A DNA stretch of 64,000 nt from Eledone cirrhosa (taxonomy: Eukaryota), in NCBI GenBank assembly GCA_964016885.1, contig OZ024742.1:278504001-278568000 (forward strand), written 5' to 3'. Under the pieces are notes generated by a model, which was given only the letters and a program-made list of their open reading frames with translations, was not told the origin of the DNA and searched no databases. Position 1 is the stretch's first letter. Every line of letters starts with the position of its first letter. A program made the position numbers and the translations under genes. Shown piece after piece: positions 9,351-61,335 of the stretch.

Positions 9351-9692
9351 TTGTAAACGGACATTATTATTATTAATATTATTATTATTATTCTCTACAT
9401 TCCTTACATCAAACTAAAATATGTTGACAATCGTTTAATAATGTCTTCCTTGTGAAATTTGTGGTCTTGTTTTGCTTAACTAATGAATATATATATATAT
9501 ATTTATATACATGTTTATGTGTATTTGGTGTATACGTCCGTATGTGTGCGGGTACGGGCGTTGCGTGGGTTCTGTATGTATTCTTTTTGTGTACGTGCTT
9601 GTATTTGCATACCCATTGCGGGTGTTTTCGAGTATGCTTATGTATGTACGTATATGGATGCGTGCATGTATATATTTAATTTCAATAACCTC

Positions 9693-10270
9693 TGTTATTT
9701 ATTTACTTTATTCTTAACTCTGAAGTCGAGTATCATTCGGTTTCCTAAATAGAAATTTACACTACGACTTCAGTTATACCATATATGTGGTTTTGTCTTT
9801 GCGTGTAATTGTTCTCACCGCTCCACATATGACGTATCACCTTCGTGTTTTCCGCTTATTGCCAGAGAACGTCTCCACGAACCACCTAATAGAATATTAG
9901 TCTACGACTTCATTTATACCATACACGTGGTTTTGTCTTTGCGTGTAATTGTTTTCATTGCTCCAATTCCAATTAATAACGTATTATTTTCGTTTTTATC
10001 CGTTCTTTGCCAGGGAACGTTTCCACGAACCAAAGTATCGTCTTCCTGTCTACCTTCGGTGGCAAAGTATTTTGAAATATTTACTTCTGCGTTCACAGAT
10101 TGATTTCTTTAGTTTCAGAAGATCCCGTTAAGGGTGAAAGCAGCGATTCTTTGCTTAAACTTTAATCTGTTATTTTAATTAATATTTGCACTACGGTTCT
10201 TATCTATATTTCATATATATATATTCTTATCGAGCCCTCTTTGGATTTTAGTCTTCAAATTTATTATTAT

Positions 10271-10272
<2 letters not shown>
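9693..10272 (+). mobile_element. Non-coding repeat family A (about 140-nt internal tandem plus variant HHR)
   Basis: Other copies at 18790-18978, 19868-20210, 46958-47690 and 60787-61250. Confidence 0.85.
10095..10170 (+). ncRNA. Hammerhead-like fold with CAGAAGA core (family A)
   Basis: ACAGAUU..AGUUU CAGAAGA U CCC GUUAA GGG U GAAA GCAG CGAUUCU UUGC UU AAACU..AAUCUGU; all three stems pair. Confidence 0.6.
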
Positions 10273-10332
<60 letters not shown>

Positions 10333-10345
10333 CATATATATATAT

Positions 10346-11161
10346 TTCAAACAATACCTGCTATTCACCTCCAGCCATCCAAAGCACACGAAGACGAACC
10401 TCTCTTTTAACCTAGCAAAAATAATTTGCATAATTCAAAGATTAAAGGAAACTCTTCTCGAAAGACAGTATCCACCGTTACTAATAGATAATGGAATACA
10501 ACGGACTAAAGCATTAGGCATTGATGAATTACGAAAAGAGAAACAAATTCAAGGTACGTCCAATATTCTATCATATATCTCAACACACACCCAAGAAATG
10601 CGGAAGCATTCAACATTATTCAAAAGAACATCCCACTATTGAAACAAGACCCAAGAATGAGAAAGTACTTGAAACACACAAAATAATCAAAAGCAAAAGA
10701 CAACCGAAATCTCTAAAAATATTACTGGCCAATGCCAAATTACCTATCACAAACCCACAGTATACATTTCAATCAGGACGACATTTTCCTGTATAATATC
10801 ACTTCACTTGTTCATCAAAAAATTTAATTTGTGCCATTAAATGTAAAGGATGCAATGAAGATTATATAGGGCAAACTAAACTCACACTCAGAAACAGAAT
10901 GACAATTCATCGCCAAAAATTACGAGACCCTACCACAAGACAGATACCACTCAGTGCACATCTAGACATATGCGCAAGAGATAAGACACCCAAATTTCAA
11001 GTCTTCCCACTTTATCTTTGCGCGGACAATACAATCGACCAAATACAAATAAATAAGGAAAATATGTTTATTCAAAAATATAGACCAGCATTAAATATGG
11101 TTTAATATACATTAATATGTTAACACAATAACACGCTACACATCCAAACAGACACACACGC

Positions 11162-12384: not shown

Positions 12385-12750
12385 GAATTGGTGCTCTGAA
12401 TTAGCGATATATATGAATGTATATATAGTGTATTTTGCAATACACTGTATGCTTAATTAAAAGCATTTTGAAGACCTCACGCTATTGTTTTAAAGTAGTG
12501 ACAGTGTCACTTACTTCTAATTTCAGCAAACGAGGGGAGATAGGCTTACAGAGCTTTGTTTCGAACTTGATGGTACTTATCAAAGCTCAGCACTCCTCCT
12601 GTTTGCTGAAAATTATGAATGTTGGATTCTTATAGAATTCCAGTAATAATCAGAACTGATTATCCAGAGCGGTTGCCGGTCCAGCAAAAATTGAAAATTA
12701 GAATTGGTGCTCTGAAATAGCGATATATATATATGAGTGTATATATAGTG
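12378..12750 (-). mobile_element. Non-coding repeat family C (about 318-nt unit with terminal direct repeat, U3-A8 HHR at 12541-12589)
   Basis: AAATTAGAATTGGTGCTCTGAA.TAGCGATATATAT occurs at about 12378 and 12696. Other copies at 13643-13940 and 29473-29835. Confidence 0.85.
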
Positions 12751-13642
12751 CACTAGCAATAAAGCGTGGCGTTGCTCGAGGCTGCTCAGTAGCTGTGTTA
12801 AAGTTACAATGTTAAGTTCCTTTCTTCGCTTAAAAACTGTAGAGTCTACAGTGAAGACTTTCATGTAGTACTTCTGATTAATATTCCCTCAACAAAACAG
12901 AATGCCTTATGAAGTTAAGAAAACATAACCATAACATGAATGTTAAAACAAAAGAGGATGCTGGGGATAAAAACATCACTGGTAATCTATTAACAAAAAT
13001 CTAAAATGTAAACACTGCAACAGTTGTCTCAGAGAAAAACATCAGCGTAACCAAACTATCAGTTATTTTGAAACAAAGAAATTGGATTGACATGAAAAAC
13101 AAAAAAACAAAACAAAATGCGTTATTTGTCTGTCGTTGCTTCTAAATGAAAATCTCATAAGGCTTTATTCGAGATCAATGCTTTTTTTACAAAATATTTT
13201 CTTGTTTTACGATGTATTCACATAGGCTTGTTTTCAAGTAAAAATATTGTTTTAAAAGACTTTTAAATGGAAATGAAGCAAAATGGAAGCTTAAAGTTGA
13301 AATTTCGAACTCATGAATTTTGCAGGTCAAAAGTTTGCTGGCTCGAAAGTTGTTCGTGTATTTTTGTACTTTTTCACGCGTCGTTTATTCGTAACATAAA
13401 TAGATAAGCAGAATGACGCCATAAAAGGGAAATAACTCGTCTCTCATCTCTATTTATACATTTGAACTGAAAAATCAATACATTACAAATTCGATTTTTG
13501 CACTTGGCGTGGGTCGATTTGATAATTTTTTTTGACCGATGTCTCCGCCGGAACTTCATCTATAAGTGTAGCAATTTCACCGAAATTTGAACGTAAGGTT
13601 TAGGAGGAGAAGTGTGTCGACCGTTTTCGTAGACAGACAGAC
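12751..13642 (+). mobile_element. Non-autonomous Helitron/DINE-like element (tentative)
   Basis: Begins ACTAGCAATAAAGCGTGGCGTTGCTCG, like the start at 63041. Ends ...GGTTTAGGAGGAG...AGACAGACAGACAG, typical of HINE/DINE ends. Confidence 0.5.
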
Positions 13643-13940
13643 AGAGCACCAATTCAAATTTTCAATTTTGGCTGGAACGGCAATCGCTCTGTATAATCAG
13701 TTCCTGATTATTATTGGAATTCTATAAGAATCCAACATTCATAATTTTCAGCAAACAGGAAAGTGCTGAGTTTTGATAAGTACCAACAAATACGAAACAG
13801 AGCTCTGTCAGCTTATCTCCCCTTGTTTGCTAAAAATAGAAGAAAGTGATACTGTCACTACTTTAAAACAATAGTGTAAGGTCTTCATAATGCTTTGAAT
13901 TAAGCATACAATGTATTGCAAAATACAATATATATATACA
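13643..13940 (+). mobile_element. Family C copy
   Basis: Reverse complement of 12410-12714. Confidence 0.85.
13767..13815 (+). ncRNA. Type I hammerhead ribozyme, U3-A8 core variant (family C)
   Basis: UGAGUU UUGAUAA GUA CCAACAAA UAC GAAA CAG AGCU CUG UC AGCUUA; GUC cleavage triplet and palindromic stem III. Confidence 0.75.
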
Positions 13941-16874: not shown

Positions 16875-17069
16875 TAACGAAGGAAATGTGGTAAGGAACC
16901 AGGTGGACCATAACGCACCAAAGTACTCAATACTTGAGGTAGTAGAGTGGGTAATAGGAACCAGTAAGACCCCGACAGCTGAGCTCAAGCCGTTTCGACG
17001 GCTAATCAATTAATAAATTAGCCGTCGAAACGGCTTGAGCTCAGCTGTCGGGGTCTTACTGGTTCCTAT
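16875..17069. mobile_element. Family F: tail plus about 116-bp palindrome containing the 3' half of an HHR
   Basis: Inverted arms 16954-17069. A second copy lies at 19577-19776, with related tails at 60050-60140 and 61345-61440. Confidence 0.85.
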
Positions 17070-18570: not shown

Positions 18571-18980
18571 GCTGCTTTACGGGTCTGAGACTTGGACACT
18601 AACCAAGAAACTCACTTAGATGGTGGATGGGTACTACACGAGATTGCTGAGGATGGCTCTGAAAATTAATCAGTATACACTGAGGATGAAAAACTCAGAG
18701 CTGTATGGGAGTCTCCCGAACGTCAGCTCAAAAGTGACACAGAGGAGACTGATGTTAGCTGGACATGCTCATCGACAGATATATATAGTAATAATAATAA
18801 ATTTGGAGACTAAAATCCAAAGAGGGCTCGATAATGATAAATATATATCAGATATATAAAAACCGTAGAGCAAATATTTATTAAAATAACAGATTAAAGT
18901 TTAAGCAAAGAATTGCTGCTTTCACCCTTAACGGGATATTCTGAAACTCAGAGTTTCAGAAGATCCCGTTAAGGGTGCAA

Positions 18981-19565
18981 CCGATACGTGCATATATATA
19001 TATGTGTGCATGTATGTATATATATATACATACAACTGTACGTCTGTATACATATATGTATGTAGGTATACATACATACATACTTACATTTAAGTAACTG
19101 CCGTACTAAGTGTAAGAAATGAAATTTCGTTGCATTCTATTCCATTTATCGTTTTCGGTGCGCCCGGCCGACTAAACTCACTCGATATGCAAATTAGGCT
19201 GCTCAGCTGTTAATATGCATAAGGAAAGTATATACTTTCAGACGTTCAACCATCTGGCAGGAAGGTATACGATGCTGACGATAGCTAATAAGCTTGAAAC
19301 TAGTACATCGTTCCTGTGTCAGTGTTGAACAAAAAGGTGACGTGGTTGCGTAATTCGGGCTGTTTGTTTGTTTACAGACAAACCGAGCATTATCATAAAT
19401 GTTCGGCAAACCGATACGTGCATATATATATATATGTATGCATGTATGTATACTACTGTACGTCTTTATACATATATGTATGTACGTATATATACATACA
19501 TACATACATTTAAGTAACTGCCGTACTAAGAGTGAGAAATGAAATTTCGTTTCATTCTATTCCAT
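18981..19565 (+). mobile_element. Non-coding repeat family B (about 430-nt unit, terminal direct repeats, HHR)
   Basis: 18981-19145 repeats at 19411-19565. Other copies at 27727-28530 and 46355-46800. Confidence 0.88.
19269..19311 (+). ncRNA. Minimal type I hammerhead ribozyme (family B)
   Basis: ACGAUG CUGACGA U AGCU AAUA AGCU U GAAA CUAG UA CAUCGU. Confidence 0.85.
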
Positions 19566-19576
19566 ATATATATATA

Positions 19577-19771
19577 TAACGAAGGAAATGTGGTATGGAA
19601 CCAGGTGAACCATAACGCACCAAAGTACTCAATACTTAGGGTAGTAGAGTGGGTAATAGGAACGAGTAGGACCCCGACAGCTGAGCTCAAGCCGTCCGAC
19701 GGCTAATTCTGGACTAGTCCAGAATTAGCCGTCGAAATGGCTTGAGCTCAGCCGTCGGGGTCCTACTCGTT

Positions 19772-19776
<5 letters not shown>
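19577..19776. mobile_element. Family F second copy; palindrome 19656-19776
   Basis: Centre GACGGCTAATTCTGGACT|AGTCCAGAATTAGCCGTC. Confidence 0.85.
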
Positions 19777-19866
<90 letters not shown>

Positions 19867-19867
19867 T

Positions 19868-20208
19868 AATAATAATAAAATTGAAGACTAAAATCCAAAG
19901 AGGGCTCGATAAGGAAAATATATATCAAATATATAAGAACCATAGAGCAAATATTTATTAAAATAACAGATTAAAGTTTAAGCAAAGAATCGCTGCTTTC
20001 ACCCTTAACGGGATCTTCTGAAACTAACAAAGTCAATCTGTAAACGCAGAACTGGATATTTCAAAAAACGTTGCAACCGGAGGAAGACAGGAAGACGATA
20101 CTTTGGTTCGTGGTGACGTTCGCTGGCAAAGAACGGGAAAAAACGAATAATACGTCATTAATGGGAGCGGTGAAAAACAATTACGCGCAAAGACAAAACC
20201 ACGTTTAT

Positions 20209-20210
<2 letters not shown>
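19868..20210 (-). mobile_element. Family A copy (variant HHR 19966-20041)
   Basis: Reverse complement of about 9920-10270. Confidence 0.85.
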
Positions 20211-27614: not shown

Positions 27615-28530
<916 letters not shown>

Positions 28531-28552
28531 TATATATATATATATATATTTG

Positions 28553-29472: not shown

Positions 29473-29835
29473 GTTAGAATTGGTGCTCTGAAATAGCAAA
29501 ATACACTATATATACATTCATATATATATCGCTATTTCAGAGCACCAATTCTAATTTTCAATTTCCGCTTCACCGGCAACCGCTCAGTATAATCAGTTCC
29601 TGATTATTACTAGAATTCTATAAGAATCAAACATTCATGATTTTCAGCAAACAAGCGGAGTACTTAGCTTTGATAAGCACCAAAAAGTGCGTAACAGAGC
29701 TATGTTATCTTTATTTCCCCTGTTTGCTGAACATTAAAGTAAGTGAGACTGTCACTACTCTAAAACATTAGCGTAAGGTCTTCTAAATGCTTTTAATTAA
29801 GCATACAGTGTATTGTAAAATACACTATATATACA
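29473..29835 (+). mobile_element. Family C copy with short inverted 5' end; degenerate HHR at 29664-29712
   Basis: UUGAUAA GCAC CAAAAA GUGC GUAA CAGAGCUAUG; inverted TTAGAATTGGTGCTCTGAAATAGC. Confidence 0.85.
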
Positions 29836-30761: not shown

Positions 30762-37107
<6,346 letters not shown>

Positions 37108-42753: not shown

Positions 42754-43549
42754 GATGTGAAGAATCTTAAAATGCTGGACCTCTATATTTTCTCACCTAC
42801 CTCCTTCGTCAGTCATCACATAGATTTGTGTGTATGTAAAACAATATTTTTTCTAAGTGGGTATATTTATATATATGTATGTGTAGGTTCGTGAGTGTTT
42901 GTAATTCTATTGTCTATATATCTTACTAAATAAACACACACAAACACATATACACTCTCACAAATATTGCATATAAATATAATTTACACAACACACATTG
43001 ACACACACACTAACACACACACAATCACAATGTGTGTAACCAATTCGCTATACATATAGACCCACACAGATGTAGCCAACATTTGGACGCTGCATCCCCT
43101 TCCTTCGCATCGACGTTATCCCCCCTTCCTTTCTCTGAAGGTAAGTTGTTGGTGCTGGACGACCAGAGGTTAAGGCTTTGTTGTCAGGCTATTGGCTGTC
43201 TATGCCCTGCCGTGGTCAGAATTGTCTGAATTTTCAGATGCCTCGAGACATTTCTAGGACCATCCTGCATAGTCTTAATGGGCGACTGGAACGGTATCTT
43301 GGCGTTACTCTGGGACTGTGTGGGCTAGTAGATAGGGAAAGTGGGTGTAAAAGCCTCGCAAACCAGTTCAGATATGTCCAATTGTCTCACAGGATACCGA
43401 GCGGATTTCCCGAATATGACAATGGGGACATGAGTAAAGGTTTAGTAAAGAAATGGCTATAGAAAAACAAAACAAACTAGATTAGAGGGTGAGCTAGTTA
43501 GAAAGTTAGAAAAATCTCTTATGTAATACATCTGACGTGCTAGCATATC

Positions 43550-46320
43550 TAAAATCTGCTCAATAATCTAAAAAACGCCAATGGAATTATTGTTAGAGCA
43601 GACAAAACATCAAACGTATATACCATGGATGTGGACACTTACAATAACTTCATCCGTAAGGAATTGCATAAAAAATACAGGAAAACTAATGAAGCCACAC
43701 TTAAAAACATCAACAACTCGGCATGTGATATTGTTAAAAAACTTTGTATTACGATAGAACGCAACCCTTAACACCAGCTATACCATCCTTCAACCTGAAG
43801 GACCACAAGATAAACTTCGATACTAACCCTAATATTAGACTTATATGCCCCTCTAAATCTGATATAGGTAAAATTAGCAAATATATACTAGACAGAATTA
43901 TCCCCCAAGTTAAGGTTAAAGTAGAGATTAAACTATGGGGTAACACTCATGAAGCAATAAGATGGTTTAACAACATTACTGATAAGAAAAAATCAAAATT
44001 TATTCAGTTTGATATTGATGAATATTATTCCTCAATTTCACCTGATACTCTACATGAAGCTCTTTCGTTCGCTAAGGATAATTCCGACCTTACGGATGCT
44101 GAAATTAAAATTATTATGGAAGCGAGAAAAACTATAGTTAAATTCGATGATAGCTACTGGGTTCGCAAAGATAGACCTTCTAATTTTGATATCACTCTGG
44201 GTTCTAATGATTCGGCGGAAGTAACAGATCTTGTGGGAATTTATATCACCCACAGATTACAAGGAAAATTCAAGGATCTCCACGGTGGAATTTACCGTGA
44301 CGATGCGCTCCTATTAGTTAAGCATATGAATAACCAGAATTTAGAAAGGATGCGTAAAAATATCTGAAAACTTTTTAAAGAACTAGGATTAAATATTACA
44401 TTTGAATATAACCTCAAAGAGGTCAACTTCCTTGATGTTACTTTCAATCTCAATACAGATACGATTAAACCGTTCCATAAACTAAATGAGAACCTTAAAT
44501 ATGTAAATACGAGTTCTAACCATCCACTCTCTATAATTAAATCCATCCCTAGAAATGTTTCTCTTAGAATCTCCCGCCTATCGTCCAACCAACAAACCTT
44601 CAAAGAACATGCCGAGTATTATGATGATGCACTTAGGAAAGCCGGTCACCTAGATAATATAGAGTATATAGTCAATGATCACCAAAACACCCAAAATAAA
44701 TCACATAGGAGTAGAAATAGCACAGAATCACCACCATACATACACTACCGCAATAGACACAATAATAGTCGCACACCACCAAACAGAAGGCGATGTAAGG
44801 AGTATATCTGGTACAACCCGGTCTATAACAAATCTATTAAAACCAATCTACCCTAAAAATTCTTTCGATTAGTTAGAAAACACTTTCCAACATCACATAA
44901 ATATAATAAAATCTTAAACCCTAACACTATTCGACTTTCATATTCAACCGCCCCTAATATTGAACAACATATAAAAAAGCTTAACGCAAAACGGTTGTAT
45001 AAACGCCTTCCAACACATAACAATACACGTAAAACATTAGCTATAACATCACAAAATAACAAACAACATCCTGTCCTACATAAGCAACCTCATCAACCCA
45101 TCCATGGCAATACAACAACGCAAAATTGTAATTGCAACTGTGTCCAACCAGGAATGTGTCCGTTGAACAATCAGTGTTTTGAACGCAACATCGTATACAA
45201 ATGTAGTATCGAATTGGATAGACAGAAGTGGTACTATGTGGGATCTACAGCCACCTCCTTCAAATCACGCCTTTATAGACATCGTTATTCGATAAAATAT
45301 GAAAACCAGCGTTATGTAACAACACTCGCAGACAAGGCTTGGCAGCTGCGTGAAAATAACCAACAATTTCACCTAAAATGGGATATAATAGCGCTGCCCC
45401 CCCCCCCCCCCCCCCATAATCCAATGGACAGGAATTTTGTAAATTATGTAATGTAGAATTATTTTGTATTATGAAATCCAAAAACATTTTATTAAATAAC
45501 AGAATAGAGCGATCGTTATACTGTAACCATCGCTTAAAATCTACATTTTCATATTATAAATACTACCAGGATTGAACGCCTGTCTCTATCCCCGTTTGAT
45601 TGTCAAAATAGATATGAACATTCTTTATTAGTCTTAATTCTATCAACTCTTCTATTATTTACCTTTTAATACAAACTGCTATAGATAAAATGAGATTTCT
45701 GATTTCTTGATTCAATTCCCTAGTGCATATACCAGCTGGCTACTAGCATTGATGTTATTTAGTAGCAATCGAAATCTCCCGCTTCCCCAATTGACACTTT
45801 ATAATTAATACTACTGCACCAAATGACCACCCTGTCCACTGTCCAGTTGGTCAAGTAGAGATTAAAATTGGCACTCCCAAAATTCTTATTTAGATTTACT
45901 CATGGTATTCTCATTAAAAACCCATTATATACTTGTTTAGCAGTAAATTATTTTACCATCTGTCATATTCTATCCCCTCTGTTCCTTCCTCTTTTACTAA
46001 TATAAATACTTCAATTTTTCAGATTTTATCCAGTTTATCCAAAATCTCTGAAGAAGTGACAACTGATTATACATTTGCTATCGAATACTTGCTAACATTA
46101 TATGATTACGCAAGCAGCGATACATAGGTATTCGGTCTGTTACAGAAACATATGTCAATACCTAATAAATTCCTTTTTTAACAAAAGCACTTTCATTTTA
46201 TATTCATCCTTTCTACATTTCTCCGGAATATAATTTATACTCGTTGAGCAAACCTGCACGTACGCTGTTCATCTCTAACGTAACGATATATTATCACTAC
46301 ATTATTGATAACCTGAAATT
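43550..46320 (+). mobile_element. Naiad-like Penelope element (RT plus C-terminal GIY-YIG), decayed
   Basis: IIVRADKTSNVY, LKDHK..NP..RLICPSKSDIG, FDIDEYYSSI, FDITLGS.DSAEV.DLVG, GIYRDDAL, VNFLDVTF, IWYNP, CNC..CPL..QC..IVYKC, YVGST, CKLC, CNH. Disrupted by frameshifts and stops. Confidence 0.92.
46048..46156 (+). ncRNA. Hammerhead-like fold with extended stem II in the Naiad tail
   Basis: CUGAAGA A GUGACA ACUGA...UCGGU C UGUUAC A GAAA CAUAUG UC; stem I pairs poorly. Confidence 0.5.
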
Positions 46321-46354
46321 TTATATATATATATATATATATATAAGTTGTAAT

Positions 46355-46949
<595 letters not shown>

Positions 46950-46957
46950 ATATATAT

Positions 46958-47690
46958 TAAAATATCAAATTAAAGTTTAAGCAAAGAATCTCTGCTTTCA
47001 CCCTTAACGGGATCTTCTGAAACTAAAAAAATCAATCTGTAAACGCAGAAGTAAATATTTCAAAAAACGTTGCAACCGAAGGAAGACAGGAAGACGTGTA
47101 AACGTTCCCTGGCAAAGAACGGATAAAGACAAAGATAATTGTTTCTACTTTTGGCACAATGCCAGCAAATATACCAGTGTATTACTGGTACTTTATTTTA
47201 TCAACCCTGTAATGATGAAAGGCAAAGTTAACCTCGATAAGGATAAAGACAAAGATAATACGTCTAATTTGGAGCGGTGAAAACAATTACACGCAAAATC
47301 ACGTTTATGGTATAAATGAAGTCGTAGACTAATATTCTATTAGATGGTTCGTGGAGACGTTCTCTGGCAATGAACGGAATAAACGAAAATTATACGTCAT
47401 TATATGGAGTGCTGAGAACAATTACACGCAAAGACAAAACCACGTATATGGTATAACTGAAGTCGTAGACTAAAATACTATTAGGAAACCGAATGATTCC
47501 CGTCTTCAGAGTTATGTATAAAGTAAATAAATTACAGAGGTAATTACAGAGGTAAAGCAGCGATTCTTTGCTTAAACTTTAATCTGTTATTTTAATAAAT
47601 ATTTGCTCTACGGTTCTTATATATTTGATAAATATTTATCCTTATCGAGCCTTCTTTGGATTTTAGTCGTCAAATTTATTATTATTACTA
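46958..47690 (-). mobile_element. Family A copy with inserted SINE fragment (47137-47240) and inverted end (47553-47690)
   Basis: Homology to 9693-10272. GGATAAAGACAAAGATAAT is duplicated around the SINE piece. Confidence 0.85.
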
Positions 47691-60786: not shown

Positions 60787-61249
60787 TCGTAATAATAATA
60801 AATTTGAAGACTCAAATACAAAGAGGGCTCGATAAGGATAAATATATAGGAACCGTGGAGCAAATATTTATTAAAATAACAGATTAAAGCTTAAGCAAGA
60901 ATGACGTATTATCTTCGTTTTTTCCGTTCATTCCCAGGAAACGTCTCCACGAACCACCTAATAGAATATTAGTCTACGATTTCATTCATACCCTAAACGT
61001 GGATTTTGTCTTAGCGTGTAATTGTTCTCACCGCTCCAAATAATGACGTATTATCTTCGCCCCCTCCCCCCACACGTTCCTTTCCAGGGAACGTCTCCCC
61101 GAACCATAGTATCGTCTTCCTGTCTTCCTTCGATTGCAACGTTTAACGAAATATTTACTTCTGCGTTCACAGATTGATTATTTTAGTTTCAGAAGATCCC
61201 GTTAAGGGTGAAATCAGCGATTCTCTGCTTAAACTTTAATCTGTTATTG

Positions 61250-61250
<1 letters not shown>
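60787..61250 (+). mobile_element. Family A copy with inverted 5' segment (60787-60900); variant HHR at 61169-61244
   Basis: Homology to 9830-10175. Confidence 0.85.

Positions 61251-61335
<85 letters not shown>

What the first reader, a model, noticed from the sequence alone, without database searches (positions are those of the whole stretch)
18981..19565. Family B: about 425-nt permuted unit with minimal HHR and pairing-preserving variation
Three copies show stem I as ACGAUG/CAUCGU, ACGUUG/CAGCGU and ACGGUG/CAUCGU. Other variation falls at N7 and the stem II loop. The palindromic stem III ACUAGU implies dimeric cleavage. Copies start at different points of the unit (18981, 27948, 46420), as expected from a circular or multimeric template. 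The unit carries its own TA/TACA microsatellites, so it may seed them.
Basis: partly seen in the sequence, partly recalled or inferred. Interest (0 to 1): 0.78.

Follow-up and report, generated by a model that had tools for sequence, protein, structure and literature searches.

The report
Hammerhead repeat inserted Penelope-style
A roughly 420-base non-coding repeat carrying a predicted self-cutting hammerhead RNA is a small parasitic element of a known kind (retrozyme-like); its copies have fixed tail ends and mirror-image arms like those left by Penelope-like retrotransposons, which suggests those elements paste it into the genome.

Summary
The three hammerheads are real (3 matches, none in 100 shuffles). 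They have canonical type I architecture, not the 'minimal' form: 6-bp stem I with a bulged extension, 4-bp stem II over a U·U pair, and a palindromic stem III. The pairing-preserving variation is one base pair and is not significant (173/500 shuffles).

The unit is 420-430 nt and non-coding. Only 5' ends vary. All five 3' ends fall at two sites about 57 nt apart and run into (TA)n. Two of three loci are head-to-head, with the extra 'tail' on one arm only. This is the insertion pattern of Penelope-like elements (PLEs), and four decayed PLE ORFs lie in the window. In one genomic read set, 24,806 reads leave the unit at one position (19126/19127).

Variable starts therefore reflect 5' truncation, not random entry on a circle. 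Copies do cross the cleavage site, so the template was a circle or an uncleaved tandem RNA; I cannot tell which. Each locus has one hammerhead, so none can release a monomer. Seeding of microsatellites is minor (1 of 67 TA arrays). Verdict: a new retrozyme-like family with useful junction evidence for PLE mobilisation.

The parts
18978..19568 (+). Locus 1, direct arm: a 5'-truncated partial unit (18978-19149) followed head-to-tail by one full 420-nt unit. It ends at site B in a short (TA)n run.
19255..19321 (+). Type I hammerhead of locus 1. Stem I 19269-19274/19306-19311; UAU bulge 19266-19268 with distal helices; core 19275-19281; U.U at 19282/19295; stem II 19283-19286/19291-19294; GAAA 19296-19299; palindromic stem III 19299-19304; predicted cut after A19305 (GUA).
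   Evidence: cleavage is inferred, not shown
18990..19088 (+). Internal TA/TACA block of the unit (repeated at 19415-19510); ends at 3'-end site A
19089..19149 (+). 'Tail' segment between end site A (19089-19092) and end site B (19145-19149). It contains an imperfect hairpin whose loop (19126-19129) is where most reads of run X21 leave the unit.
18779..18977 (-). Left arm of locus 1: 3' end of an unrelated repeat family (here called C) with a 61-bp fold-back, joined to family B through a 1-nt overlap
27727..27942 (-). Locus 2, inverted 5'-truncated arm; carries the tail and ends at site B in (TA)n/(CA)n
27946..28532 (+). Locus 2, direct arm of about 1.4 units. It starts within 2 nt of the unit position where the inverted arm starts (short spacer between them), lacks the tail and ends at site A in (TA)n.
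28263..28329 (+). Hammerhead of locus 2 (core at 28283; U.G in stem I)
46345..46417 (-). Locus 3, inverted arm; carries the tail and ends at site B in (TA)n; 3-nt overlap with the direct arm
46415..46798 (+). Locus 3, direct arm of about 0.7 unit; internal TA run expanded to 24 units; lacks the tail and ends at site A in (TA)n
46465..46531 (+). Hammerhead of locus 3 (core at 46485; G.U in stem I; variant loop II)

Best explanation
Family B is a non-autonomous, non-coding retroelement of about 420 nt with a canonical type I hammerhead (a non-LTR-retrozyme-like family), copied into the genome in trans by a Penelope-like RT/GIY-YIG protein. SHOWN in sequence: unit length, hammerhead layout, head-to-tail continuation, fixed 3' ends, variable 5' ends, head-to-head arms with a tail on one arm only, and TA-rich flanks. 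INFERRED, step by step: (1) A master locus elsewhere is transcribed as more than one unit. (2) The PLE endonuclease nicks AT-rich or (TA)n DNA on both strands. (3) RT primes from each nick at one of a few fixed internal sites (site A, the tail hairpin loop, or site B) and copies toward the RNA 5' end, crossing the hammerhead cut site, until it stops at a variable point. (4) The two cDNAs are joined at their 5' ends by 1-3-nt microhomology or a short spacer, giving the inverted structure. The template is either a hammerhead-made circle or an uncleaved tandem transcript (I put this near 45:55). The hammerhead most likely cuts only as a dimer. The three loci here hold one hammerhead each and cannot release a monomer alone.
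For: (1) Five 3' ends in two clusters: 19089 and 19092; 19145, 19149 and 19149 (locus-1 coordinates, read by eye). Summed cluster width is 7 nt, with P 0.0003 under a uniform null and 0.002-0.006 under TA-biased nulls; the five 5' starts span 264 nt. (2) Both loci whose two arms are family B (2 of 2) have one arm with the tail and one without. This is the PLE signature in PMC8557442 Fig. 2 and PMC3846280, and PMC11167929 explains it by two internal RT start sites and both-strand nicking. (3) In RAD run X21, + mate depth falls from 30,748 to 2,694 after 19127. There, 14,664 + 10,142 reads leave at 19126/19127 into heterogeneous AT-rich DNA (agreement 0.33-0.34). (4) There is no depth step at the cut site (7,993/8,179/8,720 on + mates across 19282-19323). 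(5) Four decayed PLE ORFs lie in the window: RVT_1 or GIY-YIG Pfam hits for three, and an RT-like Atlas hit plus DKT and CxCX5C Hydra-type motifs for the fourth. (6) Longest sense Met-ORF in a unit read as a circle is 51 aa. (7) The family is abundant: 10,487 contigs of run X1 and 80,259 of 12,467,656 reads of X21 were laid, some of them only on the microsatellite part.
Against: (1) The in-window sample is three insertions; using only the three right-hand ends, clustering is not significant (P 0.054-0.125). (2) The dominant exit in the RAD reads (19126/19127) is about 20 nt upstream of in-window site B. Site A is not among the loose ends displayed for X21, and 926 rows were not shown. (3) RAD reads are a biased sample and the number of distinct loci is not given. 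(4) The in-window tail is 55-60 bp, longer than the 30-40 bp reported for PLEs (site A to 19127 would be 35-38 bp). (5) No sequence link between B and any of the four PLEs in the window was found, so the helper is unidentified. (6) Target-site duplications cannot be read inside (TA)n. (7) Neither cleavage nor transposition was tested.
Confidence: 0.8

Rival explanations
1. The unit is the pseudo-LTR of an autonomous PLE whose ORF lies elsewhere in the genome; the loci are short truncated insertions of that element or of a doubled pLTR.
For: Retrozymes match PLE termini in Xenopus (24 of 57 families hit known TEs, 21 of 22 of them PLEs; bioRxiv 10.64898/2026.07.22.740005). All junction features fit PLE ends. 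One search shows only the best-supported loose ends, so a rare ORF junction could be hidden.
Against: In 2 of 2 arms that span site B, the sequence closes on the unit's own start rather than running into an ORF. Reads also continue through 19142-19155 (4,830 + 3,096). The hammerhead is canonical, whereas metazoan PLE hammerheads are mostly minimal, as in the window's other family at 33624/26353. No B sequence flanks any of the four PLE ORFs here.
Confidence: 0.12
2. One reading: copies come from a circular RNA entered at arbitrary points, so both ends are permuted.
For: The 5' starts are spread over 264 nt. Copies exceed one unit and cross the cut site. The unit folds stably as a circle (z -6.7 to -7.6). 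Comparable animal repeats do make circles (PMC7229834).
Against: The 3' ends are clustered. Five of 29 control slices of the window reach z <= -6.5, so the folding score is not specific. Variable 5' ends are the norm for PLE insertions.
Confidence: 0.04
3. DNA-level dispersal of a hammerhead-bearing satellite (extrachromosomal circles, gene conversion or rolling-circle DNA transposition) into fragile TA tracts.
For: Partial tandems and inversions can arise in repair; the copies sit in TA tracts that are prone to breakage (general knowledge, recalled).
Against: Fixed 3' and variable 5' polarity matches the hammerhead's sense strand in all five arms. The tail/no-tail asymmetry is specific to PLEs. 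No DNA-transposon termini were seen on reading.
Confidence: 0.04

Closest known systems
Metazoan non-LTR retrozymes (Cervera & de la Pena 2020, PMC7229834; Li, Clavereau & Pollet 2026, bioRxiv 10.64898/2026.07.22.740005)
   Same: Non-coding unit within the reported 150-450 bp range, GC about 38%, one canonical type I hammerhead per unit, head-to-tail repetition, and coexistence with PLEs. A U.U pair at the base of stem II also occurs in axolotl HHR_Amex2.
   Different: These loci are dispersed 0.7-1.4-unit copies with one hammerhead each, not arrays of two or more. They carry inverted arms, fixed 3' ends with a tail and an internal microsatellite block; I found no such junction analysis in either paper's main text. 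Cleavage and circles are untested here.
Insertions of endonuclease-positive Penelope-like elements (Craig et al. 2021, PMC8557442; Arkhipova et al. 2013, PMC3846280; Frangieh et al. 2024, PMC11167929)
   Same: 5' truncation, partial tandems, an adjacent inverted 5'-truncated copy, palindrome or microhomology at the inversion centre, an optional tail on one end, and (TA)n/AT-rich targets.
   Different: No RT or GIY-YIG ORF. The tail is 55-60 bp in the window against 30-40 bp. The hammerhead is canonical rather than minimal. Non-autonomous PLEs reported for Chlamys share 3' sequence with their helper; no such match was found in this window.
Minimal hammerheads of PLE pseudo-LTRs (Cervera & de la Pena 2014, PMC4209133)
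   Same: Type I topology, palindromic stem III and expected dimeric cleavage.
   Different: Family B has a 6-bp extended stem I and 4-bp stem II, and has U.U instead of the conserved G10.1-C11.1 pair. The window's other family (33624, 26353) is the one that fits the minimal type.

Membership tests
Non-LTR retrozyme | Canonical type I hammerhead in the unit | tested here: met
   Complete core and 20 of 20 pairs formed in all 3 copies. Rfam support is weak: HH9 17.6 bits, below the gathering score of 52.
Non-LTR retrozyme | Short non-coding unit (150-450 bp), GC below 50% | tested here: met
   420-430 nt, GC 0.37-0.38. Longest sense Met-ORF 51 aa; one 100-aa antisense ORF in locus 1 only, over low-complexity sequence.
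Non-LTR retrozyme | Head-to-tail repetition of the unit | tested here: met
   About 1.4 units at loci 1 and 2
Non-LTR retrozyme, 'active' by Li et al. 2026 | [quoted passage not shown] | tested here: not met
   One hammerhead per locus, 3 in the window. These loci are therefore not filed as active retrozymes. The rest of the genome is not held.
Non-LTR retrozyme | Self-cleavage, monomeric or dimeric | not testable with these tools
   Needs an in vitro assay
Non-LTR retrozyme | Expressed as unit-length linear and circular RNA | not testable with these tools
   Needs RNA data or a northern blot
Non-LTR retrozyme | Highly self-paired predicted circle | tested here: inconclusive
   z -6.7 to -7.6; z -3.05 and -6.24 without the TA block; but 5 of 29 control slices reach z <= -6.5
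Non-LTR retrozyme | No primer-binding site or polypurine tract | not tested
   No search was made for these motifs
PLE-type insertion | Variable 5' truncation with fixed 3' ends | tested here: met
   small in-window sample
PLE-type insertion | Adjacent inverted 5'-truncated copy | tested here: met
   2 of 3 loci; in the third the opposite arm belongs to another family
PLE-type insertion | 30-40-bp tail on one end only | tested here: inconclusive
   Asymmetry in 2 of 2 inverted loci, but 55-60 bp long; site A to the RAD exit at 19126/19127 is 35-38 bp
PLE-type insertion | (TA)n or AT-rich targets | tested here: met
   5 of 5 3' ends run into TA repeats; AT-rich loose ends in X21
PLE-type insertion | Target-site duplication | tested here: inconclusive
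   Cannot be read inside (TA)n
Autonomous PLE | RT plus GIY-YIG ORF | tested here: not met
   None in or beside any B copy
Minimal PLE hammerhead | Short stem I (4-5 bp), long stem II, unpaired base after A9 and G10.1-C11.1 | tested here: not met
   6-bp extended stem I, 4-bp stem II, U.U at the base (definition)

The most novel reading that the evidence does not exclude
A hammerhead-made ~420-nt circular RNA is the transposition template. A dimeric Penelope-type protein primes it at fixed hairpin-defined sites from both strands of a TA target, and can load two different parasite RNAs in one event (the C-B composite at 18779-19568). The family would then be a natural record tying retrozyme circles directly to PLE integration chemistry.
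Probability: 0.3. Interest if true: 0.55.

Novelty: new member of a known kind. Interest (0 to 1): 0.33.

Why it matters
Hammerhead repeats of this size are known from many animals, so the element class is not new. What drives their spread is still open: the 2020 paper names PLEs only as a candidate, and the 2026 preprint adds co-occurrence and pLTR phylogeny. This family offers a different kind of evidence, the PLE-specific junction pattern on a canonical-hammerhead repeat, and it names exact priming sites to test in the available in vitro PLE system. It also shows that permuted start points alone do not indicate a circular template.

Tried and rejected
Rfam: nothing at gathering threshold over the window. 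An E-value search of 18900-19700 gave 93 sub-threshold matches, led by microsatellite-like miRNA models, and no hammerhead. Only the 121-nt search showed HH9.

My first structure string was out of register; the result was discarded and the count redone.

Searches for more copies with flanks found none: viral contigs 0, metagenome contigs 0 twice. No genome is held. Earlier scan notes held nothing by place or sequence.

No RNA holder was listed, which is no evidence on expression. Sixteen runs had small shares; I laid one of them (X6) and draw nothing from the other 15. Four of 23 listed runs were laid in all.

Covariation from reads could not be tested: position 19272 varies widely (A>T in 807,420 of 1,273,118 depth in X1), but its partner 19308 is not among the 40 rows shown, and 92 rows were hidden.

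An unmasked BLAST was swamped by TA repeats and was redone with masking. My descriptor required stem I of 5 bp or more and so skipped the minimal hammerheads at 33624 and 26353.

B as the 3' UTR of the Hydra-like ORF at 43400-45560 was rejected: locus 3 starts about 800 nt later with its own (TA)n-anchored inverted arm. A resemblance between the last bases of B and of the Neptune-like element is too short and AT-rich to count.

Literature. Full-text searches. 'non-autonomous Penelope' + hammerhead gave 0 papers; retrozyme + target-primed + Penelope + tail listed 2, of which I read passages of one and only the listing of the other. The library lacks most subscription papers. The host species was not determined.

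Full report
CONTEXT. The window is AT-rich DNA packed with microsatellites (132 tandem-repeat rows) and short interspersed repeats, many with inverted arms. It looks like animal genomic DNA; the host was not determined and no genome is held. It carries four decayed Penelope-like (PLE) ORF regions: 10346-11105 (+), about 30800-32300 (+), about 34940-36920 (-) and 43400-45560 (+). Pfam gives RVT_1 or GIY-YIG for 3 of 9 fragments scanned, one from each of the first three regions. The fourth has an RT-like Atlas hit (0.94) and the DKT and CxCX5C motifs that PMC8557442 lists for the (TA)n-targeting Hydra clade.

THE HAMMERHEAD. The pattern has 3 matches and 0 in 100 shuffles. With stem I, its distal extensions, stem II and stem III, 20 of 20 pairs form in all 3 copies. 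Two pairs vary: one on both sides (A-U, U.G, G.U) and one on one side. On three sequences this is not significant (173 of 500 shuffles as high). Isolated 71-nt folds are no better than shuffles (z -0.4 to -0.6). Rfam finds nothing at gathering threshold and a weak full-length HH9 match in a narrow search (17.6 bits, E 0.032).

The layout is 6-bp stem I with a three-base bulge, 4-bp stem II and a 1-2-bp palindromic stem III. PMC4209133 (parts 1-2 of 4 read) calls this canonical, not minimal. The U.U pair under stem II has a precedent in axolotl HHR_Amex2, which cleaves weakly alone and better as a dimer (PMC7229834; parts 2-3 of 6, the discussion and passages read). The stem III palindrome gives a 6-bp duplex of -4.8 kcal/mol. 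Dimeric cleavage is a reasonable inference but was not tested.

THE UNIT AND ITS COPIES. The period is 420-430 nt and GC is 0.37-0.38. The three loci are 87-91% identical over the shared non-microsatellite parts. The longest sense Met-ORF is 51 aa. Low-stringency BLAST of the non-repetitive core finds only the three loci. Locus 1 is a 5'-truncated part-unit plus one full unit. Locus 2 is an inverted arm (27727-27942) head-to-head with a 1.4-unit direct arm. Locus 3 is an inverted arm (46345-46417) head-to-head with a 0.7-unit direct arm. Each locus has one hammerhead, so none can excise a monomer by itself, and none meets the 'active retrozyme' criterion of the 2026 preprint (parts 1-3 of 5 read).

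THE ENDS. In the hammerhead's sense, the five arms have 5' starts spread over 264 nt. Their 3' ends fall at site A (19089, 19092) or site B (19145, 19149, 19149) in locus-1 coordinates, each running into TA repeats. These positions were read by eye and are uncertain by a few bases because of TA overlap. The chance of such tight two-site clustering is 0.0003 for uniform ends and 0.002-0.006 if ends are restricted to TA-like positions. The three right-hand ends alone give 0.054-0.125, so the window by itself is suggestive, not conclusive. In loci 2 and 3 one arm ends at B and the other at A. Inversion centres show a near-palindrome with a short spacer (locus 2) and a 3-nt overlap (locus 3).

PMC8557442 (passages, outline and sections 3 and 11) and PMC3846280 (passages) describe this pattern for PLEs: 5' truncation, partial tandems, an inverted 5'-truncated copy and a tail on one end. 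PMC11167929 (parts 1-2 of 4) shows a PLE protein cutting AT-rich DNA on both strands and starting reverse transcription at two internal sites that define the tail. It also finds that hammerhead cleavage is not needed in vitro.

READS FROM OTHER COPIES. Four of 23 listed runs were laid on 19030-19420 at 80% likeness. The family is abundant in organism A, and related sequence occurs in runs of organisms B and C. In RAD run X21, + mate depth drops from 30,748 (19114-19127) to 2,694 (19128-19141), and 24,806 reads leave at 19126/19127 into heterogeneous AT-rich sequence. That position is the loop of an imperfect hairpin whose foot is site B, and it lies 35-38 nt past site A. This supports a fixed 3' end, with three caveats: it is not the same base as in-window site B, site A is not among the rows shown, and RAD sampling is biased. 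There is no depth step and no listed pile of ends at the predicted cut (19305), so genomic copies were not made from cleaved linear monomers.

MECHANISM. The best reading (0.8) is a retrozyme-like RNA borrowed by a PLE protein: nicking of TA-rich DNA, priming at fixed internal sites, variable run length and joining of two oppositely primed cDNAs. The template must continue across the cut site, so it is a religated circle or an uncleaved tandem transcript. The data do not choose between them. Circular folding is stable (z about -7), but 5 of 29 control slices score as well. At locus 1 the opposite arm is a different family (C), joined with a 1-nt overlap, and the rest of C's arm does not follow B's 3' end. 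This suggests co-integration of two RNAs by the same machinery; it is one case and an inference.

MICROSATELLITES. The internal TA runs are 6-8 units in five passes and 24 in locus 3, so local expansion happens. Only 1 of 67 merged TA arrays lies inside a copy and 3 adjoin copy ends. Carriage of microsatellites by Penelope elements is already reported in shrimp (PMC7878876, passages).

COMPARISON AND VERDICT. It works like a non-LTR retrozyme and is inserted like a PLE. Family membership is probable, while cleavage and circles are untested and these three loci fail the two-hammerhead criterion. In the main texts I searched, the 2020 paper has no occurrence of 'inverted' or 'truncat', and the 2026 preprint has none of 'tail' or 'junction'. 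The junction evidence may therefore add something, subject to supplements I could not see and papers outside the library (searches). Earlier scan notes describe similar cases in other genomes; they are unchecked leads, not support. Novelty: new member of a known kind. Interest: 0.33.

Noticed in passing
window 18779-18977: Family C's 3' end with a 61-bp fold-back forms the left arm of locus 1 and is fused to family B with a 1-nt overlap; this may be a two-family co-integration. Other C pieces lie at 9684-10273, 19857-20210, 46957-47688 and 60789-61251.
   Followed up: partly
window 33624 (-) and 26353 (-): Minimal-type hammerheads in the 3' repeat of a Neptune-like PLE (ORF about 34940-36920, -). 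Both copies end at the same point in (TA)n.
   Followed up: partly
window 43400-45560 (+): Decayed PLE with Hydra-clade motifs (DKT, CxCX5C); no Pfam hit for its three fragments; no hammerhead core found near it by the scans.
   Followed up: partly
window 13761-13820 (+); family 12419-12722, 13642-13927, 29530-29834: Candidate hammerhead with the U3-A8 core variant and a 12-nt palindromic stem III; the 29530 copy is degenerate and has an inverted arm.
   Followed up: no
window 47975 (+) and 15221 (-): Two further hammerhead-like cores with U after A9 and U before GAAA; stems not checked.
   Followed up: no
window 19578-19773, 16876-17066: Another short family with a ~110-bp palindrome, next to (TA)n; one copy directly follows locus 1.
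   Followed up: no
window 35119-36920 (-): This PLE ORF is GC-rich (0.46-0.58 in the 2-kb bins) against about 0.33 for the window, and a long (TA)n tract cuts it off at 36913.
   Followed up: no
window 19333-19350: Subfamily-variable segment just downstream of the hammerhead; the three loci carry three versions, and runs X1, X21 and X6 show these and others.
   Followed up: partly
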